From a virus: a stretch of 64,000 nt of DNA. Under the pieces are notes generated by a model, which saw nothing but the letters and a program-made list of their open reading frames with translations, searched no databases and had not been told where the DNA came from. The stretch spans positions 32,001 to 96,000 of IMG/VR virus record IMGVR_UViG_3300027806_000001. One strand, 5' to 3'. Position numbers and translations under genes: made by a program. Shown piece after piece: positions 8,761-64,000 of the stretch (the first letter of the stretch is position 1; every line of letters starts with the position of its first letter).

Positions 8761-8768
8761 ATTGTAGC
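8761..8768 (-). promoter_or_regulatory. Candidate late -10 element GCTACAAT
   Basis: Intergenic, downstream of the capsid terminator and upstream of ATG 8719. Confidence 0.45.
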
Positions 8769-8805
8769 CGGAATGCACGATGCTGCAAAATCCGGATGGC
8801 AAGGA

Positions 8806-8833
8806 CAAGGGGCCCCCTTGCGGGAGCCCCTTG
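8806..8833 (-). terminator. Stem-loop after the major capsid gene
   Basis: CAAGGGGCTCCC-GCAA-GGGGGCCCCTTG: 12-bp stem with one wobble and a GNRA loop. The U-tract is weak. Confidence 0.55.
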
Positions 8834-8854
8834 CGGTTCAGGTCAGGTCACCGA

Positions 8855-47819: not shown

Positions 47820-48148
47820 TGCTTCCTGCCTTTCTTCTTGGTCTGCTTGGCCGCATTCTCGCGGCGGTGGATCTCGCTCCATAGACGTGGGCCGCCCGTC
47901 CAGGTCCTGCCCTGGAGCTCGATGTACGCATCCTCGATCAGGGCGGCCAGCTTGGGCGCGTTGCCGGTGAAGGTCTTGGCGTAGAAGTAGCCGTCCCAGT
48001 CGTAAAGAGTCATGCTGGCCGCGGCAATCCTGCGCTCTAGATCCTTGATGCGTTTCTGCGCCTTGAGCAGCTCCGAGGTCGCACACCCGCACGTCGCAGG
48101 CTTGGCCTTGGAGGATCCCGTCTTACGACTCTTTGCCTGCTTGCTCAT
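47816..48148 (-). CDS. Hypothetical protein using the Gly-array junction
   Basis: Start re-called at MSKQAKSRK. It has the same junction as the Gly-X ORFs but a non-repetitive body, and ends TKKKGRKQ. Confidence 0.6.
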   Translation of the reverse strand: MSKQAKSRKTGSSKAKPATCGCATSELLKAQKRIKDLERRIAAASMTLYDWDGYFYAKTFTGNAPKLAALIEDAYIELQGRTWTGGPRLWSEIHRRENAAKQTKKKGRKQ

Positions 48149-48447
48149 CCTGCCCCCTTTCCGTTGCCATCGCCATAGCCGTAGCCGCTGACGTAGCCAA
48201 AGCCATAGCCACTGCCGTAGCCGCAGCCTCTGCCGCAGCCGTAGCCTGTGCCATCGCTGCTGCCAGATCCAGTGCCACGGCCGTTGCCCCAGCCGTAGCC
48301 ACTGCCGGTGCCGTGGCCACTGCCCCTGCCATCGCCGAACTCGCCGCCGCACTTGCCGAAGCCTACGCCTCTGCCGGAGCCATCGCCCTCGCCGCAGCCA
48401 CTGCCGCTGCCGTCGCCATTGCAGTACTCGATGTTCTGCGTGCTCAT
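48145..48447 (-). CDS. (Gly-X)n array protein 8
   Basis: MSTQNIEYCNGDGSG...GNGKGAG, ATGA-coupled. Confidence 0.7.
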   Translation of the reverse strand: MSTQNIEYCNGDGSGSGCGEGDGSGRGVGFGKCGGEFGDGRGSGHGTGSGYGWGNGRGTGSGSSDGTGYGCGRGCGYGSGYGFGYVSGYGYGDGNGKGAG

Positions 48448-48764
48448 CCTGTCCCCCTTCCGTTGCCATCGCCCTCGCCCCTGCCGTAGCCCCTGCCGTA
48501 GCCTGTGCCGTTGCCCATGCCGCGGCCATAGCCAAAGTCGCCGCCTGCGCCGCCTACTCCGCCACCCACTCCGCTGCCATCGCCCCTGCCGTTACCCCAG
48601 CCTCTGCCGCAGCCGTAGCCTGTGCCATCGCCGTCGCCCCTGCCTTCCGCCCTGCCGCAGCCTGTACCGAGGTATTCGCGGTTGCCATGGCCCCAGCCCC
48701 AGCCGCTGCCGAAGCCTTGGCCGGCAATTGCTCCGCAGCCGTACTCGATCCTCTGCTTGCTCAT
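48444..48764 (-). CDS. (Gly-X)n array protein 7
   Basis: Start re-called at MSKQRIEYGCG. Confidence 0.7.
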   Translation of the reverse strand: MSKQRIEYGCGAIAGQGFGSGWGWGHGNREYLGTGCGRAEGRGDGDGTGYGCGRGWGNGRGDGSGVGGGVGGAGGDFGYGRGMGNGTGYGRGYGRGEGDGNGRGTG

Positions 48765-49162
48765 CCTGCCCCCTTTCTGCGGCCATTGCCCCAGCCGCGG
48801 GCCGTGCCGCAACCGTGACCTCTGCCCATGCCGTCGCCGTAGCCGCTGCCCTGGCCGTCTCCAGCAAAGAAGTACGGGCCGCCGCCGGAGCCCTGACCAT
48901 TGGTGTAGCTGGGGCCGAAGAAGCTTGTAGTGCCGTAGCCTGTGCCGTCGCCGCAGCCCTTGCCGTCGCCGTCTCCATAGCCATCGCCGCGGCCATCGCC
49001 ACCAAAGACAAAGCCATGCGCCGAGCCGTGGCCGTAGCCTGTGCCGTCGCCGCAGCCCTTGCCGCTGCCGCTGCCCCAGCCTGCGCCCCAGCCGTCGCCG
49101 TCCGCGTCGCCGCGGCCTGTGCCGAGGCTATTGCAGTTGCCTAAGTTGCGTTTCTTGCTCAT
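48761..49162 (-). CDS. (Gly-X)n array protein 6
   Basis: Start re-called at MSKKRNLGNCNSLG. Aromatic inserts FVFG, SFFGP, PYFFAG. Confidence 0.7.
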   Translation of the reverse strand: MSKKRNLGNCNSLGTGRGDADGDGWGAGWGSGSGKGCGDGTGYGHGSAHGFVFGGDGRGDGYGDGDGKGCGDGTGYGTTSFFGPSYTNGQGSGGGPYFFAGDGQGSGYGDGMGRGHGCGTARGWGNGRRKGAG

Positions 49163-49497
49163 CCTGCCCCCTCCCCGTTGCCGGCGCCCAGGGTTGCACC
49201 CCCGCCATTGCCAGTGCCGTTGCCGTTGCCCCTGCCGTTGCCCTGGGCTAAGCCGCCGGTCCAGTTCCGGCCATCGCCGTAGCCATAGCCGCCGCCAGTG
49301 CCGTAGCCGCCGCAGTTGCCGCCGCCGTAGCCGCTGCCACTGCCGTCGCCGTCGCCGCCGTAGCCGGTGCCGCGGCCTTGGCCGCGGCCGCAGCCCTCGC
49401 CGCTGCCGCTGCCCCTGCCCCAGCCTGCGCCCCAGCCGCTGCCGTCGCCATGGCCGGAGGCCGTGCCCTTGCCGTACTCGATGTTCTGCGTGCTCAT
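49159..49497 (-). CDS. (Gly-X)n array protein 5
   Basis: MSTQNIEYGKGTASG...LGAGNGEGAG. Confidence 0.7.
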   Translation of the reverse strand: MSTQNIEYGKGTASGHGDGSGWGAGWGRGSGSGEGCGRGQGRGTGYGGDGDGSGSGYGGGNCGGYGTGGGYGYGDGRNWTGGLAQGNGRGNGNGTGNGGGATLGAGNGEGAG

Positions 49498-49856
49498 CCT
49501 GTTCCCTCCCCGTTGCCGGCGCCCAGGGTTTCACCATGGCCGCTGCCACTGCCCATGCCGTTGCCCTTGCCATCGCCCCTGCCGTCGCCGCCGCCGCAGC
49601 CGCTGCCACTGCCCATGCCGTTGCCCTTGCCATCGCCCCTGCCGTCGCCGCCGCCGCAGCCGTTGCCACGGCCTGAGCCGTCGCCACTGCCGTCGCCGAA
49701 CCCGGCGCTGCCGCCGCCGTAGTTGTTGCCATCTCCCCAGCACCGGCCGTAGCCTTGGCTATCGCCGCAGCCTGAGCCGCTGCCGTAGCCCCCGCCTCTG
49801 CCGCAACCGTGGCCGGAGGCCGTGCCGTAGCCGTACTCGATCCTCTGCTTGCTCAT
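49494..49856 (-). CDS. (Gly-X)n array protein 4
   Basis: MSKQRIEYGYGTASG...LGAGNGEGTG, with an internal 60-bp tandem duplication. Confidence 0.7.
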   Translation of the reverse strand: MSKQRIEYGYGTASGHGCGRGGGYGSGSGCGDSQGYGRCWGDGNNYGGGSAGFGDGSGDGSGRGNGCGGGDGRGDGKGNGMGSGSGCGGGDGRGDGKGNGMGSGSGHGETLGAGNGEGTG

Positions 49857-50281
49857 CCTGCCCCCTTTCCGTTGCCGTCGCCCATACCTCTCTGAAACCC
49901 GTGGCCATAGCCGCAGCCCCTGCCGTCGCCCTGGCCCCGGCCCCTGACCTGAGCCGACGGGCTACCGTAGGGAAACAGAAGCCCTCCGCAACCGTGACCT
50001 CTGCCCATGCCGTCGCCGTGACCTTGGCCGTAGTCCGGCTGACTGGACTTGACCGTCCTGACCAGAGGCCCGCAACCGTCGCCAGTTCCGTTGCCGTCGC
50101 CGTGGCCACTGCCCCAGGGGGAGTAGCCTTCGTCGCCGCCGTAGCCGTTGCCACAGCCGGCGGTCGACCTGCTCCTGCCGGTGCTCCAGCCCCGGCCTTT
50201 GCCATCGCCTTGGCCTGCGCCATCGCCAAAGCCGCTGCCGCGGCGTGCAAGCGCCTCGGCTGAAAATTCATCGTTGCTCAT
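49853..50281 (-). CDS. (Gly-X)n array protein 3
   Basis: Start re-called at MSNDEFSAEALARRGSG. Confidence 0.7.
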   Translation of the reverse strand: MSNDEFSAEALARRGSGFGDGAGQGDGKGRGWSTGRSRSTAGCGNGYGGDEGYSPWGSGHGDGNGTGDGCGPLVRTVKSSQPDYGQGHGDGMGRGHGCGGLLFPYGSPSAQVRGRGQGDGRGCGYGHGFQRGMGDGNGKGAG

Positions 50282-50625
50282 TTCTTCCCCTTTCCGTTGC
50301 CTCGACCTTGGCCGTTGCCGCTGCCGCAACCATCACCAGAGCCGTTGCCGTTGCCGTCACCGTTAGCGGTTCCGCTGCCGAAACCGAAGCCGCGGCCGTC
50401 GCCCATGCCGCAACAGCAACCACGGCCCATGCCATCGCCGCTGCCGCTGCAATAGCCGGAGCCGCTGCCGTTGCCGCTGCCGATGCCACTGCCGTTGCCA
50501 TAGCCCCAGCCGCTGCCAGTGCCGTTGCCGTAGCCCTCACCTGTGCCGTTGCCGAACCCGGCGCCGCTGCCACTGCCGTAGCCCCTGCCGCTGCCGTCGC
50601 CATAATCGATCCTCTGCGTGCTCAT
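50278..50625 (-). CDS. (Gly-X)n array protein 2
   Basis: MSTQRIDYGDGSG...GNGKGKK. Confidence 0.7.
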   Translation of the reverse strand: MSTQRIDYGDGSGRGYGSGSGAGFGNGTGEGYGNGTGSGWGYGNGSGIGSGNGSGSGYCSGSGDGMGRGCCCGMGDGRGFGFGSGTANGDGNGNGSGDGCGSGNGQGRGNGKGKK

Positions 50626-50696
50626 CCTGCCCCCTTTCCGTTGCCGTCGCTGCCACCCTGCGCCGAGCCGTGGCCCATGCCGTTGCCTTGAGTCAT
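50622..50696 (-). CDS. (Gly-X)n array mini-ORF 1, 24 aa (possible remnant)
   Basis: My translation: MTQGNGMGHGSAQGGSDGNGKGAG*, coupled by ATGA at both ends. Confidence 0.45.
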   Translation of the reverse strand: MTQGNGMGHGSAQGGSDGNGKGAG

Positions 50697-50827
50697 TCGA
50701 AGTCCTCCGTCTCGTGGGGCTCCAGGATCGGGCACCCTGCGCCGACCCAGGAGTCCATGCATTTGTGGCACCACGGCCACGACTCGTTCTCGTCGTATTC
50801 CCGCTTGCAGTTATCGCACTCGGCCAT
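50693..50827 (-). CDS. Small Zn-finger-like protein, 44 aa, heading the Gly-X array
   Basis: My translation: MAECDNCKREYDENESWPWCHKCMDSWVGAGCPILEPHETEDFE*. SD GAAAGGGGG. Confidence 0.55.
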   Translation of the reverse strand: MAECDNCKREYDENESWPWCHKCMDSWVGAGCPILEPHETEDFE

Positions 50828-50846: not shown

Positions 50847-50888
50847 GCAGGGAGGTCCTCCGCCTGATGGCGCGGAGGACCTCCCTGC
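50847..50888. repeat. Perfect 17-bp inverted repeat at the predicted transcription start
   Basis: GCAGGGAGGTCCTCCGC-8 nt-GCGGAGGACCTCCCTGC, 1 nt from the -10 box. Confidence 0.85.
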
Positions 50889-50889
50889 T

Positions 50890-50917
50890 ATTCTCACACG
50901 CGCGCCCCCGCTGTTTA
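50890..50917 (-). promoter_or_regulatory. Early-type promoter TAAACA-N16-GAGAAT
   Basis: TAAACA GCGGGGGCGCGCGTGT GAGAAT. Confidence 0.7.
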
Positions 50918-52864
50918 GCGGGTGGATTGCGGGGCCCAGACGCCCACGCAGTTCTCCGCGATCCACGTGAACAGCTCGGCCTTGAGGTCGGACTGGCTGC
51001 TCATGAGCCTGCGGAGCTCCTCCCACTGCGCCTGGGCGATCTCGTCGGTGCCGTAGAGGATCGACCCCGAGGCCAGCTCCTCGTCGAGGATCCGGAGCTT
51101 GTCGAAGTCGCCGCGGATGAACGAGACGTCGATGCCCATCTCCCTGAGCCTGGGGCTGATCATGCGCGCGGCCCGGACGGCGTAACCGTCGCGGATGTCC
51201 TCGAGCTTGTACTCCTCGCCCAGGAGCTCCTGGTCGACGCCTTGCTCCTCCAGGACGGACGAGACGATCGCCTGCAGCTGCTCCAGCCGGGTCTGGCCCG
51301 AGGCCGGATCCAGGGGCACGGCCAGCGCCTCGACCAGGGACGCGTGGATCGCCTGATGCACGGCCGGGCCAAGCACCTGGTCGAGCGGCACGGCCTTGCC
51401 CTCCGCCTCCGGCTGCTTGCCCTTGCGGGAGCTCTTGCCGGTGGCCTTGGGGAACGCCGTGACCAGGATGGGATCGGCCATGTCGTTGATCTGCATCAGG
51501 ATCAGCAGGCAGTTCGTCCTGTCGGTCAGGAACTCCCGCTTGTCCAGCTCCTGGCCCTCCACGGGGTCGGGCAGCATGGGCACGTAGTAGTCGACCTTGA
51601 CGCTATTCTTCAAGGATATGTTGTCCGCGGTTACGAACTTGCGGAATGCACGGCCGATCGTCTGCACGGCTAGGGACGAGCTGCCCTCGGGCGACGTGTG
51701 GTGAATGCGGGAGCAGGGGCACCAGTCGGTGCCCTCGCGGCCCAGCATGCACGTGACCACGACGTCGAACTTGGAATCGCCGTCCTCGGGCTTCTTGGGC
51801 TCCTGCAGCAGCAGGGCCTTGTGAGCGTCCTGGGTGGCCCGGGTGACCAGGTCCAGGATCCGGACGCCGGGCCAGGCCGCCCGGATGTCGTCCATGAGGG
51901 CGCGGATCTGGCCGGTCTCGTCCTGGCCCTTGCCGGCCTTGTCCTCGGTGCGCCACTTCTGGCCGATCGACGGAACGATGACCAGGTGCTTCTGGTCCTG
52001 CTCGCTGGCGATCGCCTGGACGACGTCGACCAGCGGGCCCTGCTCGTGCTCGTACTCGAGGAACTGCACCCGGAAGTCCGCGATCTTCAGAGTCTTCCAG
52101 TGGTCGATCCAGTCGCGCCAGTAGGTCGTGAAGCGGCCCTTGATGGAGTCGTCCAGGATCGCCGTCTGGTCGCCGCGGAACGGCGTGGCGGTCGTCAGCT
52201 GCAGCCGGGCCGAGTCCGCGGCCGGACGGCTAAGGACGAAGTTGCAGATCTTGCCCAGCTTGACCGACTCCTCCGTGCCCTCCTTTTCCGTGACGCCGTT
52301 GACGTGGTGCGCCTCGTCGATGCGGATCGTCAGGTTGCGCACCGCCTGGGCGCGCTCCGTGGCGTCCAGCTCCGACCAGAGGCGGGCCAGGGCGGCGTGG
52401 GAGGTGACCGCCGAGACCAGGCCCGAGCCGTCGGACTGGCGGAGGAGCCAGCGCTTCAGGTCGGCCATGATGGTCGGCGAGGAGGTGTTGCAGAAGTCGT
52501 GGCGGATGGCCCAGGTGAGGGTCTCCCACGTGGTGCGGATCTGGACCTCGGCGCCGTCGTCCCACTTGCTGAAGCCGCCGGAGATGTGGCTCTGCGGCAC
52601 GACGATGAGCTGCCGCTGGCGGAACCTCGTGTGCTCGGCCTCGTAGGCCGCGAGGGCGCACTGCAGGGTGGACTTGCCCGCGCCGCAGGGGGCGACGAGG
52701 AAGCTGTGCTCCGCGAGGTGCAGCTTGAGGAAGGCGTCGGGCTGCCAGTCCCGGAGCTCGCGGACGCCGGAGACGGCCTTGGGCTCGAGGACGATGGTGC
52801 TCCAGGTCGGGTTGGTGCCCGAGGTCGAGAGACGTGAGTTGCTGCGTGTCTTGGTCTTGTTCAT
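50915..52864 (-). CDS. Superfamily 2 (DExD/H, Res/UvsW-like) helicase/ATPase
   Basis: Q motif LRDWQ; I APCGAGKS; Ia LIVVP; II IDEAHH; III TATPFRGD; V GREGTDW; VI QTIGRAFR. Confidence 0.9.
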   Translation of the reverse strand: MNKTKTRSNSRLSTSGTNPTWSTIVLEPKAVSGVRELRDWQPDAFLKLHLAEHSFLVAPCGAGKSTLQCALAAYEAEHTRFRQRQLIVVPQSHISGGFSKWDDGAEVQIRTTWETLTWAIRHDFCNTSSPTIMADLKRWLLRQSDGSGLVSAVTSHAALARLWSELDATERAQAVRNLTIRIDEAHHVNGVTEKEGTEESVKLGKICNFVLSRPAADSARLQLTTATPFRGDQTAILDDSIKGRFTTYWRDWIDHWKTLKIADFRVQFLEYEHEQGPLVDVVQAIASEQDQKHLVIVPSIGQKWRTEDKAGKGQDETGQIRALMDDIRAAWPGVRILDLVTRATQDAHKALLLQEPKKPEDGDSKFDVVVTCMLGREGTDWCPCSRIHHTSPEGSSSLAVQTIGRAFRKFVTADNISLKNSVKVDYYVPMLPDPVEGQELDKREFLTDRTNCLLILMQINDMADPILVTAFPKATGKSSRKGKQPEAEGKAVPLDQVLGPAVHQAIHASLVEALAVPLDPASGQTRLEQLQAIVSSVLEEQGVDQELLGEEYKLEDIRDGYAVRAARMISPRLREMGIDVSFIRGDFDKLRILDEELASGSILYGTDEIAQAQWEELRRLMSSQSDLKAELFTWIAENCVGVWAPQSTR

Positions 52865-53736
52865 GGTTTCTTCGCTTTCTTGTTGGTTGTGCGTGAGTTT
52901 CTTAGCTGTGTGGAACGAGTGAACCAGTCCGGCCTCAAGGACCGGAGCTCCTGGTCGAACACCGGGTCGTAACTGTCGGACTTGGAGTTGGTGTAATCGC
53001 AGAGAGGATGGCCCAGCGGGTGCTTTTTCGCATTAGGCCTAGACTCCTCCCTCAGGGCCATGGCCTTGAGCTCGGCCTTGTTTAGTGCGGCAGTGTCCAG
53101 GAACCAATCGGGCCTGAGGGCCCGGATCTCCTGATCGAAGGAAGGGTCGTAGTTGTTGGACTTGGGGTTGGTGTAACGGCAGAGCGCTCCGCCCATCGGA
53201 TGCTTTTTCTGATTAGGCCTAGACTCCTCCCTCAGGGCCATGGCCTTGAGCTCGGCCTTGTTTAGTGCGGCAGTGTCCAGGAACCAATCGGGCCTGAGGG
53301 CCCGGATCTCCTGATCAAAAACCTGGTCGTAGCAAGCCCGAGAGGGGTGAGTGTACTCGCAGAGAGGATGGCCCAGTGGGTGCTTTTTCTTGCCGTTTTT
53401 TGAAGGCCTTGGATCGCCCCGCAGAGCCATGGCCTTGAGTTCGGCCTTTTTGCTTGTTGAGTCCTTGTCGCCCCACCACTGTGGTGCAACCGCCCTCAAC
53501 CTGGCCTCGAACTCAGGTTTATAGCTCGAGCTGCTTGGGTTCTTGTAGTTGTGCAGCGCACTCTTCAGCTGCTGCACCTTGAACCCCGTGGCCTCCGCCA
53601 CGGCCTCCCACAGCTTCCTGCTGTTGCCCTCGCCCCACTGCACCTCCGGCAGCTGCTCCGGGGCGATGCCGAGCTTCCCGCAGATGGCCTCGGTGACGGC
53701 CTTAATCTTCTCCCCTGTCAGGTGCCTGAGGTGCAT
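52861..53736 (-). CDS. Helical repeat protein 3 (three HA-like repeats)
   Basis: Three copies of KAELKAMALR.E.RP...KHPLG..LC.YT......YD..FDQEIRALRPDWF. Stop overlaps the helicase ATG. Confidence 0.8.
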   Translation of the reverse strand: MHLRHLTGEKIKAVTEAICGKLGIAPEQLPEVQWGEGNSRKLWEAVAEATGFKVQQLKSALHNYKNPSSSSYKPEFEARLRAVAPQWWGDKDSTSKKAELKAMALRGDPRPSKNGKKKHPLGHPLCEYTHPSRACYDQVFDQEIRALRPDWFLDTAALNKAELKAMALREESRPNQKKHPMGGALCRYTNPKSNNYDPSFDQEIRALRPDWFLDTAALNKAELKAMALREESRPNAKKHPLGHPLCDYTNSKSDSYDPVFDQELRSLRPDWFTRSTQLRNSRTTNKKAKKP

Positions 53737-54440
53737 GCCTGCTCCTTCTTCTTCTTGGCGCGTGTTTTCCTGCGCTTGTCGGATCGTGTGAACCAGTCCG
53801 GCCTTAGGGCCCGGATCTCCTGGTAGAACACGGGGTCGTAGGACTTGGAACTGGGGTCGGTGTAGTTGCTGAGCACCCTGCCCAGGGGGTGCTTGTTCTT
53901 GCCTTTGGACACTGGCCTCGGCTCTCCCCTCAGGGCCATGGCCAGGAGCTCGGCCTTCTTAATGTCGGCTTTCTCAGATTGCGAGACAAACCAGTCCGGC
54001 CTCAAGGCCCGGATTTCCTGGTCGAACACCGGGTCGTAGGACCTGGACGAGCGGATGGTGTAGAGGACGAGCGCGTGCCCCAACGGGTGCTTGTCTCCAG
54101 CAGGCCTCGGCTCTCCCCGCAGGGCCATGGCCAGGAGCTCGGCCTTCTTGCCCTCCGGGTCGGCACTGCTCCACCACTGCGGCGCAACCACCTTCCACCT
54201 GGCGGCGAGCGCAGGCCTATAGGAGCAGTGGCTAGGGGTCTTGTAGCTACTCAACGCAGTGCTCAGCTGCTTTTCCGGGAATCCCACGACCTCATGGGCG
54301 ACGCTCCAGACGACCTTGGACCTGTCACGGTTCCAGTCGACCTTCCCTCCCTGGAGATCCTCCACGGTCACCCCCAGCCTGGAGCACATGAGCTCCAGCA
54401 TCCGGCTCTTTATTCCCTCCGTCAGACTGTTCCTAGGCAT
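53718..54440 (-). CDS. Helical repeat protein 2 (two HA-like repeats)
   Basis: Start re-called at MPRNSLTEG (SD AAGGAG). Same N-terminal domain and repeat as its neighbours. Confidence 0.8.
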   Translation of the reverse strand: MPRNSLTEGIKSRMLELMCSRLGVTVEDLQGGKVDWNRDRSKVVWSVAHEVVGFPEKQLSTALSSYKTPSHCSYRPALAARWKVVAPQWWSSADPEGKKAELLAMALRGEPRPAGDKHPLGHALVLYTIRSSRSYDPVFDQEIRALRPDWFVSQSEKADIKKAELLAMALRGEPRPVSKGKNKHPLGRVLSNYTDPSSKSYDPVFYQEIRALRPDWFTRSDKRRKTRAKKKKEQACTSGT

Positions 54441-55504
54441 GCCTGCTCCTTCTTCTTGGCTGCGCGCGAGTTTTTGAGCTTGTCGGATCGCGTGAACCAC
54501 TGCGGGGCCAGGGCCCGGATCTCCTGATCGAACACAGGGTCGTAGCACTTGGAACCGGAGTTGGTGTAGTTGTAAAGCGCCCTGCCCAGCGGATGCTTGC
54601 CTGCAACAGGCTTGGGCTCACCCCGCAGGGCCATGGCCAGGAGTTCGGCCTTGTTCAGGTTAGCTTTCTCAGATTGCGAGACAAACCAGTCCGGCCTGAG
54701 GGCCCGGATCTCCTGGTCGAACACGGGGTCGTAAGAATCGGACGAGGGGTTGGTGTAGTCGCAGAGCACCGCACCCAGCGGGTGCTTGCCTGCAACAGGC
54801 TTGGGCTCACCCCGCAGGGCCATGGCCTTGATCTCAGCCTTCTTCAGGTCGGCTTTGTCAGATTTTGAGACAAACCAGCTTGGAGCCAGGGCCCGGATCT
54901 CCTGGTCGAACACGGGGTCGTAAGAATCGGACGAGGGGTTGGTGTAGTTCTTGAGCACCGCACCCAGCGGGTGCTTGCCTGCAACAGGCTTGGGCTCACC
55001 CCGCAGGGCCATGGCCTTGAGTTCAAGCTTGTTCTGAGCCGCGGTATCGACGAACCAGTCCGGTCTGGCGGCGCGAATCTCTTTGTCGAACACCGGGTCG
55101 TAGGAGTTGGACGAGAGGTTGGTGTACATGCAGAGCACCGCACCCAGCGGGTGCTTCTTATTTGGCCTCGGCTCGCCCCTCAGGGCCATGGCCAGGAGCT
55201 CGGCCTTCCTACCCTCCGGGTCGGCCGTGCTAAACCACTGCGGCGCAACCACCCTCAACCTGGCCTCGAACTTAGGTCGATATGTGTCCCTGTTGCTCGG
55301 ATTCTTGTAGTTGTGCAGCGCATTCTTCAGCTGCCCCTCCGAGAATCCCACCACCTCATGGGCCACGCTCCACACGGCCTTGGACTTGTCCCGGTTCCAG
55401 TCGACCTTCCCTCCGCGGAGATCCTCCACGGTCACTCCCAGCCTGGAGCACATGAGCTCCAGCATCCGCTGCTTCATGCCCTCCGTCAGGTTGTTCCTGT
55501 TCAT
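54422..55504 (-). CDS. Helical repeat protein 1 (four HA-like repeats)
   Basis: MNRNNLTEG..., four about 59-63-aa repeats, with near-identical DNA units at 189-bp period. Confidence 0.85.
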   Translation of the reverse strand: MNRNNLTEGMKQRMLELMCSRLGVTVEDLRGGKVDWNRDKSKAVWSVAHEVVGFSEGQLKNALHNYKNPSNRDTYRPKFEARLRVVAPQWFSTADPEGRKAELLAMALRGEPRPNKKHPLGAVLCMYTNLSSNSYDPVFDKEIRAARPDWFVDTAAQNKLELKAMALRGEPKPVAGKHPLGAVLKNYTNPSSDSYDPVFDQEIRALAPSWFVSKSDKADLKKAEIKAMALRGEPKPVAGKHPLGAVLCDYTNPSSDSYDPVFDQEIRALRPDWFVSQSEKANLNKAELLAMALRGEPKPVAGKHPLGRALYNYTNSGSKCYDPVFDQEIRALAPQWFTRSDKLKNSRAAKKKEQACLGTV

Positions 55505-56120
55505 TCTTCTTTCCTTTCTTCAGAATGTACGTCGTCATGGTCAGCTTGGACCCTGAGTTCAGATAGGTAAAACACTCGATCGCGCCCCGGAGGCCCCACT
55601 GAGAGCACTCCCGTTCCGAAAGGTGCGAGTCGATGCGGTTCAGCATGTCCAGGGTCTTCCTGCTGCGCGGGTCCCTGGTGATGGCGTTCACGAACACCGG
55701 CACCCCGTCGGGCACCCTCGTCATCGTCGCCCGGACCAGCCGGGCCAGCTCTGGGCTGCCCGAGTGGCACATCGTGTCCAGGTTGACCACCGCCGGCCTG
55801 AACTCCCCGGCCAGCACCGCGGCGTTCAGCACGTCCTCCCAGTCGCCCTCGTGCCAGTGCGCCGAGGGATGGACCCGGAGGTTGGCCCGGACGACCTTGG
55901 CGTTCCGGTCGACCCCGTGGAACTGCTCCGGCTTCAGGAAGCCTGCCCTCGAGAGCTGCCCGAGCTCGGACCTGGGCGACGCGTCCTGGACGCTGCACAG
56001 GGTCCAGTACTGCAGGTCCCGGGGAACCGAGGGTCCGCCCAGGATCCGCCTCGCCCGCTGCACCAGCTCCACCCGGGACAGGACCTTCTGGTCCGCCGAC
56101 TTGCCGCCGAACTCCGTCAT
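55356..56120 (-). CDS. Class I SAM-dependent methyltransferase-like protein
   Basis: Alternating strand pattern YWTLC / FHGVD / HWHEGD / VVNLD / VFVN fits a Rossmann MTase fold, but there is no canonical GxGxG. SD AGGAGGA. Confidence 0.45.
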   Translation of the reverse strand: MTEFGGKSADQKVLSRVELVQRARRILGGPSVPRDLQYWTLCSVQDASPRSELGQLSRAGFLKPEQFHGVDRNAKVVRANLRVHPSAHWHEGDWEDVLNAAVLAGEFRPAVVNLDTMCHSGSPELARLVRATMTRVPDGVPVFVNAITRDPRSRKTLDMLNRIDSHLSERECSQWGLRGAIECFTYLNSGSKLTMTTYILKKGKKNEQEQPDGGHEAADAGAHVLQAGSDRGGSPRREGRLEPGQVQGRVERGP

Positions 56121-56131: not shown

Positions 56132-56164
56132 TGGAACGCCCGTGGTAGGACTCGAACCTGCAAC
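56132..56164 (-). pseudogene. tRNA 3'-half remnant (T-arm plus acceptor strand)
   Basis: GTTGCAGG-TTCGAGT-CCTAC-CACGGGC-GTTCCA. No anticodon arm upstream. Confidence 0.55.
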
Positions 56165-56213
56165 TTGAGGTATACTAGGTGTGACTCTAAACCTTTAAGT
56201 ATCGGATCTATAC

Positions 56214-56747
56214 ATGCGCCTGTGCCAAAAGTGCAACTCCTGCATACCGAGCCGAGCTCTCGTGAACGGAGTGGTGAAGGGCCTGAACACCAGGAAGTTC
56301 TGCTTATCCTGCTCTCCTTTTGGCGGCCGCAACAATCGCAATCTTTGCATTCCGAAAGACAAAAACGGGCTGCCCGAGAAGAAGACATGCGCCATGTGCG
56401 GCTTCGTCAAGCCCAGTTCTAATTTCTATAAAAGACGAAACAGGTCAACTCTCCTGTCTTACTGCAAAAGTTGCGTGGCGGCGCAGTCCAAGAGCCGCTC
56501 AGTCAAGCTAAAAGCCGATTGTGTCAAACACAAAGGCGGAAAATGCTCTCTGTGCGGATACTCCAAGTGCCTTGCTGCCTTGGAGTTTCATCACATAGAT
56601 CGGAGTAAAAAGCAATTTGGCGTAGGTGGAAAAAGGTCCACGACTTTCGAGAACCTCAAGGAGGAACTGGAAAAGTGCGTTTTGCTGTGCGCCAACTGCC
56701 ACAGGGAGGTGGAATACGGAACTTCTGCAATTCCGGACTCCGTCTAA
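56214..56747 (+). CDS. HNH endonuclease with Zn fingers (free-standing homing-type)
   Basis: KGGKCSLCGYSKCLAALEFHH...ELEKCVLLCANCHRE. It is the only plus-strand gene and has visibly lower GC. Confidence 0.85.
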   Translation: MRLCQKCNSCIPSRALVNGVVKGLNTRKFCLSCSPFGGRNNRNLCIPKDKNGLPEKKTCAMCGFVKPSSNFYKRRNRSTLLSYCKSCVAAQSKSRSVKLKADCVKHKGGKCSLCGYSKCLAALEFHHIDRSKKQFGVGGKRSTTFENLKEELEKCVLLCANCHREVEYGTSAIPDSV

Positions 56748-56748
56748 G

Positions 56749-56822
56749 CGTCCGCACCAGGACTTGAACCTGGAACCGCCTCGTTAGGACCGAGATGCGC
56801 TATCCAATTGCGCCATGCGGAC
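56749..56822 (-). tRNA. trnR: tRNA-Arg (anticodon CCT)
   Basis: GTCCGCA TG GCGC AATTGGATA GCGC A TCTCG GTCCTAA CGAGG CGGTT CCAGG TTCAAGT CCTGG TGCGGAC G: full cloverleaf, CCA not encoded. Confidence 0.9.
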
Positions 56823-56832
56823 AACAAGCTTT

Positions 56833-56859
56833 CATTCTATCCAGCTGAGCTAAGAGGGC
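56833..56859 (-). pseudogene. tRNA 5'-half remnant (acceptor strand plus D-arm)
   Basis: GCCCTCT TA GCTC AGCTGGATA GAAT G, with an Arg-like D-loop. It also reads as TTGCCC-N16-TAGAAT. Confidence 0.5.
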
Positions 56860-56894
56860 AAAACCCCTGGCGGCCCGGATGAAGCCGCCAGAGG
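56860..56894 (-). terminator. Rho-independent terminator
   Basis: CCTCTGGCGGC-9 nt-GCCGCCAGGGG followed by TTTT. Confidence 0.65.
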
Positions 56895-56951: not shown

Positions 56952-56979
56952 ATTCTAACCTGCGAGGTGGGGTTGTTTA
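56952..56979 (-). promoter_or_regulatory. Early-type promoter TAAACA-N16-TAGAAT
   Basis: TAAACA ACCCCACCTCGCAGGT TAGAAT, overlapping the stop of the upstream gene. Confidence 0.65.
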
Positions 56980-59272: not shown

Positions 59273-59782
59273 TCACCTCTTCAACTGGCCGTACAACTCG
59301 AACGGATCGACCACGCCGCGCATCGGATTTCGCTCGCTGTTCCACCGGTTGTAGGCATCGACGGCCATGGTCGGCCCCTGGCGCCGCGCGATGGAGGAGG
59401 CGCTGTCCGAGATGCTCTGGCCCAGGTGGCCGGCCTGAGCAGACTGCTTCCCAAGGCCTGACAGCGAGTGGCCGTAGGGCTGGTTGCTCAGGTAGAAGGG
59501 GGCCTGGGAGACAGGCGGAGGAACGGCTGCGGCAGGCAGGTCGGCCGGCGCAGGAGGTCCCACGAAGTCAGGATGGCCGTAGGAGATCACAGGACTGGCG
59601 GCCGGATGACGCAGGGAGTCGCGGGCTGGATTGTACGCGACCGGCTTGTTGAACTTGGTGAGGTTCTTCGCGGCCATGAACGGAGAGCTTCTGGTGGTCC
59701 GGCTGACCGCCTCGAGGAATTTGGCCACGCCGTCGGCCGGGCCTGCCGAGGACTTCACATGGTGGGAGTAGGGTCGGGTCAT
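59273..59782 (-). CDS. Pro/Ala-rich protein with PYSHH leader
   Basis: MTRPYSHHVKSSAG. ATGA-coupled to the RNAP gene stop. Confidence 0.6.
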   Translation of the reverse strand: MTRPYSHHVKSSAGPADGVAKFLEAVSRTTRSSPFMAAKNLTKFNKPVAYNPARDSLRHPAASPVISYGHPDFVGPPAPADLPAAAVPPPVSQAPFYLSNQPYGHSLSGLGKQSAQAGHLGQSISDSASSIARRQGPTMAVDAYNRWNSERNPMRGVVDPFELYGQLKR

Positions 59783-62700
59783 TCCAGGATCCTGACCGTG
59801 TCGGTCGCCGACACCTCGCCGCGGTTGAACGCCTTGATGGCGTCCTCGCGGGTGCGGAAGGTCTTGGCCACGTTCTTGTCGGCCTTCTGCCGGCTGGCCA
59901 GGTACAGGCCGTAGAGGAACTCGTTCTTGATGAAGGGCTGCGCCTGGAAGGTCGCCGCCGAGAGCAGGTTGCGGCTAGGCAGCATCTTGCGGTAGGCCTC
60001 GTCGACCGCGGCCTGGGTGCTGGGCACGTGCAGGCGCATCTGGTCGCCGTCGAAGTCCGCGTTGAAGCCGACGACGACCGACGGGCTCAGCCTAAGGGTC
60101 GGCCCCGCGGTGAGCACCGGCCTGGCCGCCATGAAGTTGTACTTGTGCAGCACGGGCGCGCGGGTGATCATCACCGGGCGCCGCTGCATCTCGGCCAGCA
60201 GGGCGCGGTTGGCGGTGGGCGTCCTGGACTCCACCTGCTTCATGGCCTCGAGGGGCGACGCCCCGCTGGCCACCAGGGCGCGCACCACGTACGGCCTGAA
60301 GACCGAGTAGGCCATGTCCTCGGGCACGCCCACGTGGTCCATGTCCAGGGACGGATCCGGGGTGATGACCGCGTTGCCGACGCCCTCGACGGTCGAGGAC
60401 AGCACCTTGCGCTGGAACATCGAGAACTTGGGGTTGCTGCCCAGGATGTGCCGGATCAGGCCGTTGACGTTCTTCTGGCGCAGCTTGGCGCTGGCGGGAT
60501 CCGCCAGGCCGACCGTGGCCTTGACCATGTTGTACAGCGCCAGGCGCTCCTTGCCGGACGCCTCCTGGCCGAGCTCGCCCTGCAGGTCCTTCAGGTTGCG
60601 GTTCATGCCGAAGAGCTCCTTGTACAGGTAGTTCATGTCGGCGACCATCTGCATGTTGCCCGTGTCGGTGATGGGCCGGAACCGCGGCGGCAGCACCGGC
60701 ATGTCCTCCCAGAGGAAGTCCGACGGCTTGAGGTTCCGCTTCGTCATGCCCTCGAGGTACGAGAGCCTCGAGATGGCGTTGCTGCGGCGCTGGCCCCTGG
60801 CGGTGGCGATCTCCTTGCGGGCCATCTCGGCCTCGGCCTTGAGGTCCATGCCGCCGAGGCGCTGCTCCAGGCCCGCCATGCCGTCCACGCCCTTGACCTT
60901 CTCGCCTGAGATGACCCGCTCGAGGTCCTTCTTGGTGAAGCCCATGAGCGACCTGACGGCGTCCTCCATGACGGGGTTGACCACCTTGGCCGCCAGGGGG
61001 AAGTGGCCGAACTTCGACTGGTTGGTGCCGAAGATCTTGTCGTCGAAGAAGCCGCCGTCGTAGGCCTTGCCGGTGCGGAAGTCGATGTCCCGCGGATCCT
61101 GGATCTCGCCGCCCGAGAGCTTCTTGACGTCGGAGCCGGTCATGCCATAGATGTTCACGGCGCCGCCCTGGCGCTCGACGTTGACGCCGGCGCCCTTCAG
61201 CTGGGAGACGAACTTGTCCCAGACGAACGGCACGTTGACCGCGGGGACGGGGGTGCCCATCTTGACCGCGCGCCAGTACTCGTCGTTCTTCTGGCCCCGG
61301 ACCAGGCGGGCGTCCTTGATGACGTCGATCGCGCCGTGGGCCAGCAGGGCGTTGATGTCGCTGATGGAGATGCGCTTGGCGCCCTCCTCGCCGCCCTTCA
61401 CGGGGGCCTCCTCGGTGCTGTAGCCTCCGAGGTCGCGGGCCGTGAGCTTCTTCTCCGCCTGGTGGTGCAGGTTCATGAAGTAGCGGTTGCCGGTGAAGAT
61501 GCCCTCGATGTTCCGGCCGAGCCTGGGATCGAACAGCGTCTCGGTGTCGGTCAGGCCGTTCTTCTTCAGCTCGCGCTGGGCCATGTCGATGTAGGACTCG
61601 TCGACGAAGGCCGGCAGCTTGTAGGGCACCCCGGTCTTCACCGCGATCTTGCCCAGGGCGGCCTCGACGGCCTGCACCGGGTTGACGCGGCTGGTGAGCG
61701 CCAGCGGGTTGAAGGCGATCTCGTAGGGGTTGCCGTCCTTGTCCTGCGGCATGTCCTTGTCGTCGACCACGGCCGAGACGACGCCCTTGTCGCCGTACCT
61801 GCCGACGAGCTTGTCGCCGACGCCCATGGGCTTGTAGCTCTTGATGGCCACCTGCCAGCCGCTGCGGGTGCGGGTGACGTCGGTGACGACGCCGGGCTGG
61901 CTGTGGTCCCAGGTCTGCGCCCGGTTGCTGTACGCCGGGCGGGTGCGCTTGACCAGGCCGAAGGTGTCGCCCTGGCGCTCGCCGACGCCCAGGATGACCG
62001 GGTCGCCGGGATTGACCATGGTGCCGACCTTGACGACGCCGGACCCGGCGTCGATGGCCTTGAGCTGCTCCTGGGAGTAGACGCCTGGGAACAGCGAGAC
62101 GAACCGGGAGTAGTCGGCCGAGTAGTCGTCCTTGGAGTCGTAGCCGATGGTGTACATGTGCTCCGAGGACATCTTCTCGGCCGCGGTCTTGGACATCACC
62201 ACGCCGTCCTCGAAGTTGGCGCCGCCGAGCTCCGGGTCGCCCCACACCGTGTAGGCCACGCGCAGGTTCTTGCCCATGGCGAGCCGGCCCTTGTCGTCGG
62301 TGTAGTTCGACTTGGCCAGGAGCTGCCCCGGCTGCACCTGGTCGCCCACCTTGACCATCGCCGTGTTGTGCAGGAACGTGTTGTGAATGACCAGGCCGCA
62401 GTTCACGGCGAAGACGTGGCTGTTGGCCACGGTGAAGTCGTAGACCCGCTCCTCGGCAGGCGCCTCGACGACCTCCTCGACGATGTCCCACATGACGTCG
62501 GACTTCGCCCAGGCCTCGAACGGACCCCTGGCGTTTTGGCGCGACACCTTTCCTGCGGATGCGTCCTTGTAGGCGCGCATCGGAACATCGTGCTCAAACC
62601 CGGCATAGACCAGCTGCCTGCTCTTGGCCGGCAGCGGTATGAACTCGAACACGGAGGTTCGGTAGGAAGAAGACCTCAACGACGAAAGTTTGAGGTTGCG

Positions 62701-64000
62701 GTCGGAATAGAGGAACCACTTGTCCAGCTTGGCCAGATGCGTCGAGATGACCCTGAGGCCGTAGGCATCCGCCCAATTCGGATTAGTGGAACTGAGCTGC
62801 CTGTCGGAAAGAACCGTGGAGAACACCCCGAGGCCGGACAGAAGATCGATGAGAGCGTCACGCATGGCGCGGGAAGTGGTCCATGCTTCCAATTGAACCG
62901 CGCCATTCGAGTCCTCGTGCAGGCATCCGTCGCCTGCGAAATAGCCTGCGACAAGGCCATGCCTGAACGCTTCGGAGCGGTCGAAGGCTCTTTCGGACGG
63001 ACACTTGTGAGCGCTGCCGTGGCCAAATTCAGCCACCAGCCACGACGCCACTTCGGAGGAGGTAAAGCTGACCTTGCCGGCGTCCGCCTTGTTGTCGTGA
63101 GGCTTCAAGCCCAGTTGAACAATCAGTTGCTCGAGTTCAGCCCTGCGAGAAGCATCCTTCACCGCGAGGATGACCATGTTCGGCTGCGAAGGCGGAACAT
63201 GGCCCTCGGCCAGGTAGATGCCGGCCAGAAGACCCCATTCGTGGGAATCGCGTTTATCGACGGAGTCCTTCGGATTGTCCATTGCGCATACCGGCAGTCG
63301 AGTCGTGCCGACCACGCACTCGTCCGGGTACAGGGGCACCAGCTTTCCGTCCTCTCCCATGGTGACCAGGGAGTGGTCCTCGGTGACGACCACGGTCCTG
63401 CCACCGCGGGTGCGCACCTGGACCATCCTGCGGTCGTTGGTCAGCTCGACGAAGGCCGTCACGGGCTCCCACGAGGACCTGCAGGTCTCCGGATCGATCG
63501 AGCGGATGAGGTCTCCTGCCGCGAAGGCGTACTGGTCCGCGCGCACGTGCATCCTGCGGTCACCCCGCAGAATCCACACCTTGGTGGACCCCTTGACGCA
63601 CTTCCTGTTGAACGGGAAGTTGTTGTAGGTCTCGTACCTGCGCTTCGTCTTGCCGTGCTTCACCTCGACGAAGTCCGGGTCGACCGCGGTGACGACGCCG
63701 GGGCCCAGCTCCTTCTCCGCCGTCACGGCCGCCAGGGCCGACTGCAGCTGCTCCTCGTAGGCGCGGCCCTCGGGATCCTCGGAGTCGAGGCCCTGCACCA
63801 GGGGCGACTCGGCGTCCCGCACCGGCAGGGCCTGGGTGAAGTACTTGCTGCCCATCAGCAGGCGGCCGCCCTTGATGCCCGACACGCCGGGCACGAGGTT
63901 CGAGTTCACGTTGAACATCGCGTTGTGCGACGGCAGCTCGAACTGCACCGCCTTGGGGTCGACGTAGGAGATCTCGCCGCCGACCATGGCGCGGACCATG
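59779..64000 (-). CDS. rpoBC: Fused RNA polymerase beta (C-terminal part) + beta' N-terminal half, intein-containing; 5' end outside the window
   Basis: Beta motifs: RLLMGSKYFTQALPV, GANFEDGVVMS, GDKLVGRYGDKGVV, NPLALTSRVN, HQAEKKLTAR, GAKRIS. In frame and with no stop, beta' motifs follow: GFFDDKIFG, PVLPPRFRP, RAPVLH, NADFDGDQM (60043-60063). Confidence 0.95.
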   Translation of the reverse strand, partial: MVRAMVGGEISYVDPKAVQFELPSHNAMFNVNSNLVPGVSGIKGGRLLMGSKYFTQALPVRDAESPLVQGLDSEDPEGRAYEEQLQSALAAVTAEKELGPGVVTAVDPDFVEVKHGKTKRRYETYNNFPFNRKCVKGSTKVWILRGDRRMHVRADQYAFAAGDLIRSIDPETCRSSWEPVTAFVELTNDRRMVQVRTRGGRTVVVTEDHSLVTMGEDGKLVPLYPDECVVGTTRLPVCAMDNPKDSVDKRDSHEWGLLAGIYLAEGHVPPSQPNMVILAVKDASRRAELEQLIVQLGLKPHDNKADAGKVSFTSSEVASWLVAEFGHGSAHKCPSERAFDRSEAFRHGLVAGYFAGDGCLHEDSNGAVQLEAWTTSRAMRDALIDLLSGLGVFSTVLSDRQLSSTNPNWADAYGLRVISTHLAKLDKWFLYSDRNLKLSSLRSSSYRTSVFEFIPLPAKSRQLVYAGFEHDVPMRAYKDASAGKVSRQNARGPFEAWAKSDVMWDIVEEVVEAPAEERVYDFTVANSHVFAVNCGLVIHNTFLHNTAMVKVGDQVQPGQLLAKSNYTDDKGRLAMGKNLRVAYTVWGDPELGGANFEDGVVMSKTAAEKMSSEHMYTIGYDSKDDYSADYSRFVSLFPGVYSQEQLKAIDAGSGVVKVGTMVNPGDPVILGVGERQGDTFGLVKRTRPAYSNRAQTWDHSQPGVVTDVTRTRSGWQVAIKSYKPMGVGDKLVGRYGDKGVVSAVVDDKDMPQDKDGNPYEIAFNPLALTSRVNPVQAVEAALGKIAVKTGVPYKLPAFVDESYIDMAQRELKKNGLTDTETLFDPRLGRNIEGIFTGNRYFMNLHHQAEKKLTARDLGGYSTEEAPVKGGEEGAKRISISDINALLAHGAIDVIKDARLVRGQKNDEYWRAVKMGTPVPAVNVPFVWDKFVSQLKGAGVNVERQGGAVNIYGMTGSDVKKLSGGEIQDPRDIDFRTGKAYDGGFFDDKIFGTNQSKFGHFPLAAKVVNPVMEDAVRSLMGFTKKDLERVISGEKVKGVDGMAGLEQRLGGMDLKAEAEMARKEIATARGQRRSNAISRLSYLEGMTKRNLKPSDFLWEDMPVLPPRFRPITDTGNMQMVADMNYLYKELFGMNRNLKDLQGELGQEASGKERLALYNMVKATVGLADPASAKLRQKNVNGLIRHILGSNPKFSMFQRKVLSSTVEGVGNAVITPDPSLDMDHVGVPEDMAYSVFRPYVVRALVASGASPLEAMKQVESRTPTANRALLAEMQRRPVMITRAPVLHKYNFMAARPVLTAGPTLRLSPSVVVGFNADFDGDQMRLHVPSTQAAVDEAYRKMLPSRNLLSAATFQAQPFIKNEFLYGLYLASRQKADKNVAKTFRTREDAIKAFNRGEVSATDTVRILE
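62380..63600 (-). mobile_element. Intein with LAGLIDADG homing endonuclease, 407 aa, in the RNAP beta moiety
   Basis: Starts C-VKGST, block B VTEDHSL, endonuclease motifs GLLAGIYLAEG and GLVAGYFAGDG, ends VYDFTV...VIHN followed by Thr. Removing it restores FNRK/TFLHNTAMVKVGDQV, which aligns with RpoB SNQNTCINQ.P.V..GE.V. Confidence 0.93.

What the first reader, a model, noticed from the sequence alone, without database searches (positions are those of the whole stretch)
50915..56120. Five-gene operon: methyltransferase-like gene, three stand-alone repeat proteins and an SF2 helicase
Seen: a contiguous overlapping run of MTase-like (55356-56120), repeat proteins with 4, 2 and 3 full repeats, and a complete SF2 helicase. 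The three repeat proteins share an N-terminal domain (L.EG.K...LE..C..LG(V/I)..E.L....W....S...W..V.E..GF) followed by a degenerate repeat. Known: helicase-associated (HA, PF03457) helical repeats of similar length and LG..Y..R..L..W pattern are normally fused to SF2 helicases and are predicted to bind nucleic acid. Inference: here the repeat modules are separate, paralogous, exchangeable subunits that could dock on one helicase through the shared N-domain. This resembles the specificity-subunit logic of Type I/III restriction-modification systems and could be an undescribed phage DNA-targeting, anti-defence or phage-exclusion system.
Basis: partly seen in the sequence, partly recalled or inferred. 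Interest (0 to 1): 0.85.

Follow-up and report, generated by a model that had tools for sequence, protein, structure and literature searches.

The report
Split phage helicase, methylase-fold, repeat-protein module
A 183-kb phage carries a tightly packed five-gene set (a methyltransferase-shaped protein, three proteins built of a small three-helix repeat, and an ATP-driven nucleic-acid motor). The same set recurs in many large uncultured phages, sometimes fused into single proteins, so the parts very probably work together, but on what target is untested.

Summary
On the minus strand at 50915-56120 lie five overlapping genes: X (about 205 aa), R1, R2 and R3 (4, 2 and 3 full repeats of 60-66 aa), and a 649-aa SF2 ATPase with all core motifs.

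- **X:** it models confidently as a class I SAM-methyltransferase fold. It lacks the Gly-rich SAM loop and every DNA amino-methylase motif.
- **Repeat:** each unit is three helices and matches no Pfam family. Pfam HA (PF03457) membership was not met by sequence and is inconclusive by structure.
- **Co-occurrence:** X, helicase and repeat genes are adjacent in 9 of 11 other large-phage records examined.
- **Fusions:** about 14 long proteins join this helicase family to these repeats. At least 3 join X to the helicase. The window therefore holds a split form of one machine.
- **Repeat variation:** scaffold codons differ only synonymously between the nine units. A patch on helix 2 differs almost only non-synonymously.
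- **Not found:** no nuclease domain and no defence-system match.

Docking through the N-domain could not be tested because the complex predictor was unavailable. That N-domain is lineage-specific. The best reading is a motor plus modifying enzyme plus variable nucleic-acid-binding arrays, comparable to DarB-type methylase-helicase dyads but not a member. This scan has noted the same module before in other phage genomes (e1-5401905, e1-5401914).

The parts
55503..56120 (-). X: ~205-aa class I SAM-methyltransferase-fold protein. The ORF runs on to its stop at 55356, overlapping R1 by 149 nt.
   Evidence: AlphaFold model has pLDDT 91.7 and a 7-stranded Rossmann-type fold. Foldseek gives E 3.5e-7 to RlmCD and COMT. 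VIA Z is 13-14.4 to many methyltransferases. The family has 676 clusters. None of 65 members has GxGxG or (D/N/S)PP(Y/F/W); R16, Q66 and D115 are invariant and D71 is 97% conserved.
54422..55504 (-). R1: repeat protein of 360 aa, made of an N-domain plus 4 full units
   Evidence: It has 120 homologues. pI is 9.4.
53718..54440 (-). R2: repeat protein of 240 aa counted from the ATG at 54440, made of an N-domain plus 2 full units
   Evidence: The model has pLDDT 88.5 with three helices per unit. pI is 9.9.
52861..53736 (-). R3: repeat protein of 291 aa, made of a more divergent N-domain plus 3 full units
   Evidence: pI is 9.55.
50915..52864 (-). DEAH-type SF2 ATPase/helicase of 649 aa. Its C-terminal ~170 aa has no assigned domain.
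   Evidence: phrog_16 'DNA helicase' at 1e-14, and weak ResIII and Helicase_C matches. Motifs are conserved in 6 homologues. The nearest solved relatives by profile are XPB/Rad25, Hef, UvsW and SauUSI. The same family is fused to the repeats in P0283 and others and to X in P0197 and P0233.
50847..50888 (-). Perfect 17-bp hairpin 27 nt after the helicase stop codon. It is the likely 3' end of the transcription unit, although no U-tract follows.
   Evidence: RNAfold gives -40.4 kcal/mol.
56952..56979 (-). Nearest upstream promoter-like site, TAAACA-16-TAGAAT. A tRNA-Arg gene and an antisense HNH gene lie between it and X.
   Evidence: Consensus scan only. tRNA. HNH.

Best explanation
The five genes are the split form of one conserved phage machine. 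It has three parts.

- **Motor:** a DEAH-type SF2 ATPase.
- **Modifying subunit:** X, a small class I methyltransferase-fold protein.
- **Substrate-binding part:** arrays of a basic three-helix repeat whose 52-56-aa core, with its linker, makes units of 60-66 aa.

In other phages the repeats form the C-terminal tail of the same helicase, and X is sometimes its N-terminal domain. Here the tail has become three paralogous genes, so one motor can probably carry alternative tails.

Each unit keeps an invariant scaffold and varies on the exposed face of its short second helix and the loop after it. This is the likely contact surface.

The most likely target is nucleic acid, with DNA somewhat favoured over RNA. 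I infer that the repeats hold or select the substrate, the motor translocates or remodels it, and X methylates it. Such a machine could mark or protect phage DNA in the way DarB-type methylase-helicase dyads do.

**Shown:** gene structure, folds, synteny, fusions and the pattern of repeat variation.
**Inferred:** physical association, nucleic-acid binding, methyl transfer and biological role.
For: **Synteny**
- X, helicase and repeat genes are adjacent in L005, L008, L009, L010, L011 and L012.
- They are also adjacent in IMG/VR records G001, G003 and G004. G001 has the window's own gene order.
- Sampling from the X side found the helicase next to X in L021 and L023.

**Fusions**
- Helicase plus repeats in about 14 long proteins, for example P0283, whose helicase part matches ours at E 2e-101.
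- X plus helicase in P0197, P0233 and P0258.

**Folds**
- X is a class I methyltransferase fold, with a conserved acid at the end of strand 2 (D71) and in the strand-4 segment, model strand 109-119 (D115).
- Each repeat unit is three helices.
- The repeat proteins have pI 9.4-9.9.

**Variation between the nine units**
- Scaffold columns show only synonymous differences. One example is the Gly of LG, with 23 synonymous and 0 non-synonymous pairs.
- Alignment columns 37, 38, 40, 41, 44, 45 and 48 show 0-2 synonymous and 21-32 non-synonymous pairs.
- The same columns have the highest entropy across 55 units from 7 phages.

**Other**
- The helicase profile is nearest to the DNA translocases XPB, Hef and UvsW.
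- The methylase-helicase dyad is an established phage and plasmid theme, with DarB as archetype (PMC5512222).
Against: - No binding, ATPase or methyltransferase activity has been shown.
- X lacks the Gly-rich SAM loop in all 65 members examined, so it may not bind SAM at all.
- Its structural neighbours span RNA, small-molecule and protein methyltransferases without discrimination.
- The repeat has no significant structural or sequence match to any DNA-binding domain.
- A hypervariable surface also fits protein recognition.
- Some records carry the repeats without X (G002, G005). Tunturiibacter phage Tunturi_5 pairs a 35%-identical helicase with unrelated helical repeats and has no X.
- RNA ligase genes (Rnl1, RtcB) lie near the module in two loci, and a tRNA gene lies beside it here. 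This leaves an RNA role open.
Confidence: 0.5

Rival explanations
1. RNA-directed version. The motor is an RNA helicase, X is an RNA (tRNA, rRNA or mRNA) methyltransferase, and the repeats act as PPR- or PUF-like RNA binders. The module would serve phage transcript or tRNA maturation, or protection from host RNA-targeting defences.
For: The top Foldseek hits of X include the RNA methyltransferases RlmCD, aTrm4, fibrillarin, MnmM and TrmR. The module sits beside a tRNA-Arg gene and near phage RNA-polymerase genes here. It lies next to Rnl1 in L008 and near RtcB in L009. DExH motifs also occur in RNA helicases.
Against: The methyltransferase hits do not discriminate between substrates. The neighbouring genes are not consistent across loci. 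The helicase's nearest solved relatives by profile are mostly DNA enzymes, namely XPB, Hef, UvsW and SauUSI, although Brr2 also appears weakly.
Confidence: 0.2
2. The repeat arrays are protein-recognition modules, acting as decoys or adaptors aimed at host defence or host machinery proteins. Their hypervariable patch would record an arms race, and the helicase and X would serve another role or only be tethered.
For: The hypervariable surface patch shows an excess of non-synonymous change. Arrays expand massively in some phages, with about 50 or more units over 19 kb in G002. No match to a known nucleic-acid-binding fold was found.
Against: Repeated fusion to a helicase C-terminus is the usual position of substrate-binding accessory domains. 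The proteins are uniformly basic. No PADLOC or anti-defence family matches.
Confidence: 0.15
3. A phage-borne restriction-modification-like or exclusion system. X would be the Mod subunit, the helicase the Res subunit and the repeat proteins the specificity subunits, together cutting competing DNA.
For: The three-part logic resembles Type I and III systems, and there are weak ResIII Pfam hits.
Against: No nuclease domain was found by Pfam, PHROG, NCBIfam or PADLOC. After motif VI the seven aligned helicases share only one invariant acidic residue (D588) and one invariant Lys (K419, about 170 residues upstream), which is not the close D...(D/E)xK arrangement of a PD-(D/E)xK site. X lacks the DPPY and C5 methylase motifs. 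There is no HsdS or TRD homology.
Confidence: 0.05

Closest known systems
SF2 helicases with C-terminal HA (helicase-associated, Pfam PF03457) repeats. One HA domain is solved: B. vulgatus BVU_0683 residues 627-691, PDB 2KTA.
   Same: Both have tandem helical units of about 60 aa placed C-terminal to an SF2 helicase. Both have three helices per unit and share a loose pattern (L-G..hydrophobic..aromatic ... L/I..L.P.W). True HA-like half-domains sit at the N-terminus of some family members, such as P0067 and P0077.
   Different: The Pfam HA model does not match the window's proteins. A profile of 55 units does not find 2KTA. The structural match to 2KTA is Z 4.2, no better than unrelated bundles. 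In this window the repeats are separate genes and are partnered with a methyltransferase-fold protein.
DarB-type DNA methylase-helicase dyad of phage P1 and of polyvalent proteins (Iyer et al. 2017, PMC5512222)
   Same: A methyltransferase-fold domain sits N-terminal to an SF2 motor, seen as fusions in P0197 and P0233 and as adjacent genes elsewhere. Both are borne by phages. A plausible shared role is motor-assisted modification of DNA.
   Different: DarB's methylase is an EcoKI/TaqI-like adenine methylase and its motor is SWI2/SNF2. X has no NPPY-type motif, and the helicase gives no SNF2 match, only weak ResIII/DEAD hits. DarB has no repeat arrays. Packaging into the virion is not known here.
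Type I / Type III restriction-modification systems
   Same: Both combine a motor, a methyltransferase-like protein and a separate variable 'specificity' protein. The helicase N-lobe weakly matches ResIII.
   Different: No nuclease was found, X carries no DNA-methylase catalytic motif, there is no HsdS or TRD homology and no PADLOC hit.
Tunturiibacter phage Tunturi_5 gp100-gp99-gp98 (PP885688.1), the only cultured-phage relative found
   Same: gp100 is 35% identical to the helicase over 90% of its length. Two proteins made only of helical repeats of about 55 aa follow it.
   Different: Its repeats are not detectably related to those here (hhalign probability 0.4%). BLAST found no X homologue in the 13.7-kb stretch around its helicase or elsewhere in the phage collection. 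All three genes are annotated only as 'DNA helicase'.

Membership tests
Pfam HA (PF03457) helicase-associated domain | Match to the PF03457 HMM at or above the gathering score (28.4 bits) | tested here: not met
   R1-R3 give no hit at E<=0.1. The whole 183-kb genome gives none at E<=1. Only 3 of 41 homologues hit below threshold (26-27 bits). In the two of these looked at (P0067, P0077) the hits lie on a separate N-terminal half-domain, not on the repeat.
Pfam HA (PF03457) helicase-associated domain | Three-helix fold superposable on the solved HA domain (2KTA) | tested here: inconclusive
   VIA-align gives Z 4.2, rmsd 4.8 A, 73 residues aligned. This is tied with many unrelated three-helix bundles. 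A profile of 55 units does not find the 2KTA sequence.
Pfam HA (PF03457) helicase-associated domain | Tandem copies C-terminal to an SF2 helicase | tested here: met
   About 14 long proteins carry this helicase family followed by 7-21 blastp hits to this repeat. In the window the same parts are split into separate genes.
Class I SAM-dependent methyltransferases | Seven-stranded Rossmann-type fold | tested here: met
   The model has pLDDT 91.7 with seven strands. Foldseek probability is 1.00 with E down to 3.5e-7. VIA Z is 13-14.4, and 982 of 1000 chains score Z>=8.
Class I SAM-dependent methyltransferases | Gly-rich motif I (GxGxG) SAM loop after strand 1 | tested here: not met
   None of 65 family members has GxGxG. 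The loop reads L-C-(N/S)-x-Q instead.
Class I SAM-dependent methyltransferases | Acidic residue at the end of strand 2 (ribose contact), and a conserved residue at the end of strand 4 | tested here: met
   D71 is 97% conserved at the end of strand 67-71. D115 is invariant within the strand-4 segment (model strand 109-119). SAM binding itself was not tested.
DarB-type methylase-helicase dyad | EcoKI/TaqI-like adenine methylase with an (N/D)PP(Y/F/W) motif | tested here: not met
   None of 65 X members has the motif. No N6_Mtase Pfam hit.
DarB-type methylase-helicase dyad | SWI2/SNF2-type motor | tested here: not met
   Only weak ResIII, Helicase_C and DEAD matches were found, and no SNF2 family among the Pfam hits at E<=0.1. 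The nearest solved relatives are XPB, Hef and UvsW.
DarB-type methylase-helicase dyad | Methylase domain N-terminal to the helicase in one polypeptide or operon | tested here: met
   In P0197, X occupies residues 6-200 and the helicase about 250-660. P0233 is arranged likewise. The genes are adjacent in all triad loci.
Type I / III restriction-modification | Nuclease domain on the motor subunit | tested here: inconclusive
   No nuclease family was found in Pfam, PHROGs, NCBIfam or PADLOC. After motif VI the seven aligned helicases share only one invariant acid, D588.
Type I / III restriction-modification | Specificity subunit or TRD homologous to HsdS or Mod | tested here: not met
   R1-R3 give no Methylase_S or other R-M hit in Pfam or PADLOC.

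The most novel reading that the evidence does not exclude
The repeat arrays are a new modular nucleic-acid recognition system. Each three-helix unit would read one or a few nucleotides through its hypervariable helix-2 patch, as TALE, PPR or PUF repeats do. Interchangeable arrays would then steer a single helicase-methyltransferase machine to chosen sequences.
Probability: 0.1. Interest if true: 0.9.

Novelty: new variant of a known kind. Interest (0 to 1): 0.62.

Why it matters
The module is widespread in large uncultured phages. The X family has 676 clusters at 50% identity, the word-based search found 120 near-length homologues of R1, and the records carrying it range from 37 to 618 kb. Neither X nor the repeat is in Pfam, and I found no paper on it.

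The fusion and fission pattern gives a clear, testable prediction that three gene products form one machine. If the repeats bind nucleic acid through their variable patch, they would be a new class of modular binder. If X methylates with the help of the motor, this would be a second, independent lineage of the methylase-helicase strategy that P1 DarB uses against restriction.

The module also shows how a helicase tail can break up into several alternative subunits.

Tried and rejected
Docking was therefore never tested.
- **Megablast** of the locus against phages found nothing.
- **tblastn** of R1, X and the X centroid P0123 against 50,697 phage records found nothing. The low-complexity filter may hide the repeats.
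- **The search for related loci** with the helicase found no relative.
- **Sequence searches of solved structures** with X, R1 and the unit profile found nothing meaningful.
- **Foldseek** of the whole R2 model against PDB found nothing at E<=0.001.
- **PADLOC and NCBIfam** gave no informative match.
- **hhalign** of this repeat against the Tunturi_5 repeats showed no relation.
- **Pfam hits on homologues** (Ribosomal_S13_N, LapD_MoxY_N, HTH_Tnp_IS1 and others) are scattered, repeat-inflated, whole-protein scores with no passing stretch. I rejected them as noise.
- **A weak lead kept only as a lead:** the helicase may end in a vestigial first helix of a repeat unit. Its end, 'KAELFTWIAENCVGVWAP', sits where helix 1 of the first unit lies in the fused protein P0283. 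The R N-domains lack helix 1. The unit HMM, however, does not score the helicase end.
Full report
**Setting**

The window is bases 32001-96000 of a 183,468-bp IMG/VR virus record with direct terminal repeats. GC content is about 65%. The phage encodes PhiKZ-like multisubunit RNA-polymerase beta-type proteins at 59779-63999 and 21372-23231.

**Observation**

Five minus-strand ORFs fill 50915-56120.

| Gene | Coordinates | Length |
|---|---|---|
| X | 55356-56120 | 254-aa ORF, ~205-aa protein |
| R1 | 54422-55504 | 360 aa |
| R2 | 53718-54440 | 240 aa, from the ATG at 54440 |
| R3 | 52861-53736 | 291 aa |
| Helicase | 50915-52864 | 649 aa |

- The overlaps are 149, 19, 19 and 4 nt. Each ATG follows a purine-rich Shine-Dalgarno-like run.
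- The C-terminal tail of R1 and R2, (K)KKEQAC, itself encodes the ribosome-binding site and start codon of the next gene. The genes therefore arose by tandem duplication of whole units.
- A perfect 17-bp hairpin (-40 kcal/mol) lies 27 nt after the helicase stop codon.
- X's homologues end near residue 205. The long 3' part of its ORF is read-through across the start of R1.
- Tandem Repeats Finder gives periods of 180-189 nt. Splitting at the P-x-W-F motif gives 4, 2 and 3 full units of 60-66 aa.

**The repeat**

- A model of R2 built on 41 homologues has mean pLDDT 88.5 and shows three helices per unit.
- The N-domain consists of extra N-terminal helices followed by a partial unit. Residues ~55-91 of R1-R3 match unit-HMM positions 19-52, i.e. 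helices 2 and 3, at i-E 1e-4 to 1e-9.
- R1-R3 give no Pfam family at E<=0.1, apart from one sub-threshold DUF3558 hit (13.5 bits against a 34.1 cut-off).
- PF03457 (HA) finds nothing in the whole genome.
- A profile of 55 units from 7 phages does not find the solved HA domain.
- The structural search lists 2KTA at Z 4.2, level with unrelated three-helix bundles.
- Scattered Pfam hits on homologues are repeat-inflated noise. The two looked at that match HA (P0067, P0077) do so through a distinct N-terminal half-domain that precedes the repeats.
- I therefore call the repeat HA-like in architecture and position, not an HA member.

Comparison of the nine units in the window gives a clear pattern.

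- Scaffold columns differ only synonymously. The Gly of LG, for example, has 23 synonymous and 0 non-synonymous pairs.
- Alignment columns 37, 38, 40, 41, 44, 45 and 48 (the x positions of LGxxLxxYTxxxSxx) differ almost only non-synonymously, with 0-2 synonymous against 21-32 non-synonymous pairs.
- The same positions have the highest entropy across phages.
- R1-R3 are basic, with pI 9.4-9.9.

**X**

- A model built on 65 family members has pLDDT 91.7 and pTM 0.89, with seven strands.
- It matches class I SAM methyltransferases of every substrate class. Foldseek E-values reach 3.5e-7 and VIA Z is 13-14.4. ESM Atlas neighbours are likewise methyltransferases.
- D71, at the end of strand 2, and D115, in the strand-4 segment (model strand 109-119), are conserved.
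- No member has GxGxG or a (D/N/S)PP(Y/F/W) motif.
- X is thus methyltransferase-shaped. Its cofactor binding and its substrate are unproven.

**Helicase**

- Motifs I, II (DEAHH), III and VI are conserved in six homologues.
- It matches phrog_16 and, weakly, ResIII and Helicase_C.
- By profile, the nearest solved proteins are XPB/Rad25, Hef, UvsW and SauUSI, and the matches cover little beyond motif I.
- No nuclease or defence family matches.

**Conservation of the module**

- Six metagenomic loci reached through R1 homologues all carry X, helicase and one to three repeat genes side by side. The contigs range from 37 to 618 kb and one is T4-like.
- Of five IMG/VR records reached through a repeat DNA pattern, three carry the triad, and G001 has the window's own gene order. 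G002 has about 50 or more units over 19 kb, with two helicase-repeat fusions and no X. G005 has only four units.
- Starting from X instead, L021 and L023 have the helicase next to X. L022 has a different neighbour. A fourth contig has a 771-aa gene next to X but no DNA was held for it.
- Twenty-three long proteins carry the repeat. Fourteen of them align to this helicase family N-terminal to the repeats.
- P0197, P0233 and P0258 are X-helicase fusions and carry none of these repeats.
- These fusions are the strongest evidence that the three parts act together.

**N-domain and docking**

- The first 58 residues of R1-R3 recur only in close relatives, 20 of 143 homologues.
- Other lineages have other short N-terminal peptides, each shared by the paralogues of one genome.
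- This pattern fits a lineage-specific docking element. It equally fits simple descent by duplication, or an array cap.
- In the fused homologue P0283, the helicase alignment runs into the first repeat unit exactly where our helicase ends with 'KAELFTWIAENCVGVWAP'. The R N-domains lack helix 1. This hints that the gene split inside the first unit.
- The unit HMM does not score that helicase end, and the complex predictor was unavailable. This remains only a lead.

**Comparison with known systems**

- The architecture parallels Pfam's HA-helicase arrangement and the DarB-type methylase-helicase dyad (PMC5512222). The defining sequence features of both are not met.
- The Type I/III restriction-modification analogy lacks a nuclease, DNA-methylase motifs and TRD homology.
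- The only cultured-phage relative is Tunturiibacter phage Tunturi_5. Its helicase homologue is followed by two proteins of unrelated helical repeats, all annotated 'DNA helicase'.

**Earlier notes of this scan**

- Notes on other genomes (e1-5401905, e1-5401914, e1-5804536) describe the same kind of module. I treated them as leads only.
- Their claim that the parts are fused in relatives was re-derived independently here.
- Their claim of a plug-in N-terminal helix could not be tested.

**Verdict**

This is a real, conserved, uncharacterised phage module. The window holds a split form of a helicase-repeat protein, partnered with a methyltransferase-fold subunit. Its mechanism and target are inferred, not shown.

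Noticed in passing
window 48145-50780, minus strand: Directly downstream of the helicase lies an array of about eight small genes encoding (Gly-X)n proteins. They share conserved starts (MS(T/K)Q.IEYG) and conserved ends (GNGKGAG), and their DNA is rich in 12-60-nt tandem repeats. Note e1-5818508 also records this.
   Followed up: no
window 56132-56860: An HNH endonuclease gene (plus strand, 56214-56747, phrog_2255 at 7e-42) abuts a tRNA-Arg(CCT) gene (56748-56822, minus strand). A T-loop-like GGTTCGAGTCC lies at about 56145-56165, just upstream of X, as if a second tRNA gene had been disrupted. Note e1-5818514 also records this.
   Followed up: partly
IMG/VR record G002 (IMGVR_UViG_3300037067_015585), about 9.6-28.9 kb: About 50 or more copies of the same repeat unit are spread over roughly 19 kb in about ten ORFs. 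Two of these (1144 and 1365 aa) are helicase-repeat fusions. No X homologue occurs in the 234-kb record.
   Followed up: partly
window 55356-55504: The X reading frame stays open for 49 codons past the point where its homologues end, and this stretch overlaps the start of R1. A 94%-identical relative (P0121, 254 aa) shares the extension, while a 74%-identical one (P0122, 212 aa) does not.
   Followed up: partly
window 59779-63999 and 21372-23231, minus strand: Large proteins match the PHROG families of phage multisubunit RNA-polymerase beta-type subunits, the PhiKZ-like kind. The phage therefore probably transcribes with its own polymerases.
   Followed up: no
L013 (Tunturiibacter phage Tunturi_5, PP885688.1) 7902-9757: gp99 and gp98 are annotated 'DNA helicase' but contain no helicase domain. 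They consist of helical repeats of about 55 aa (W..AE.LA.ENGG.LP...F.HI) and begin with an HA-like half motif.
   Followed up: partly
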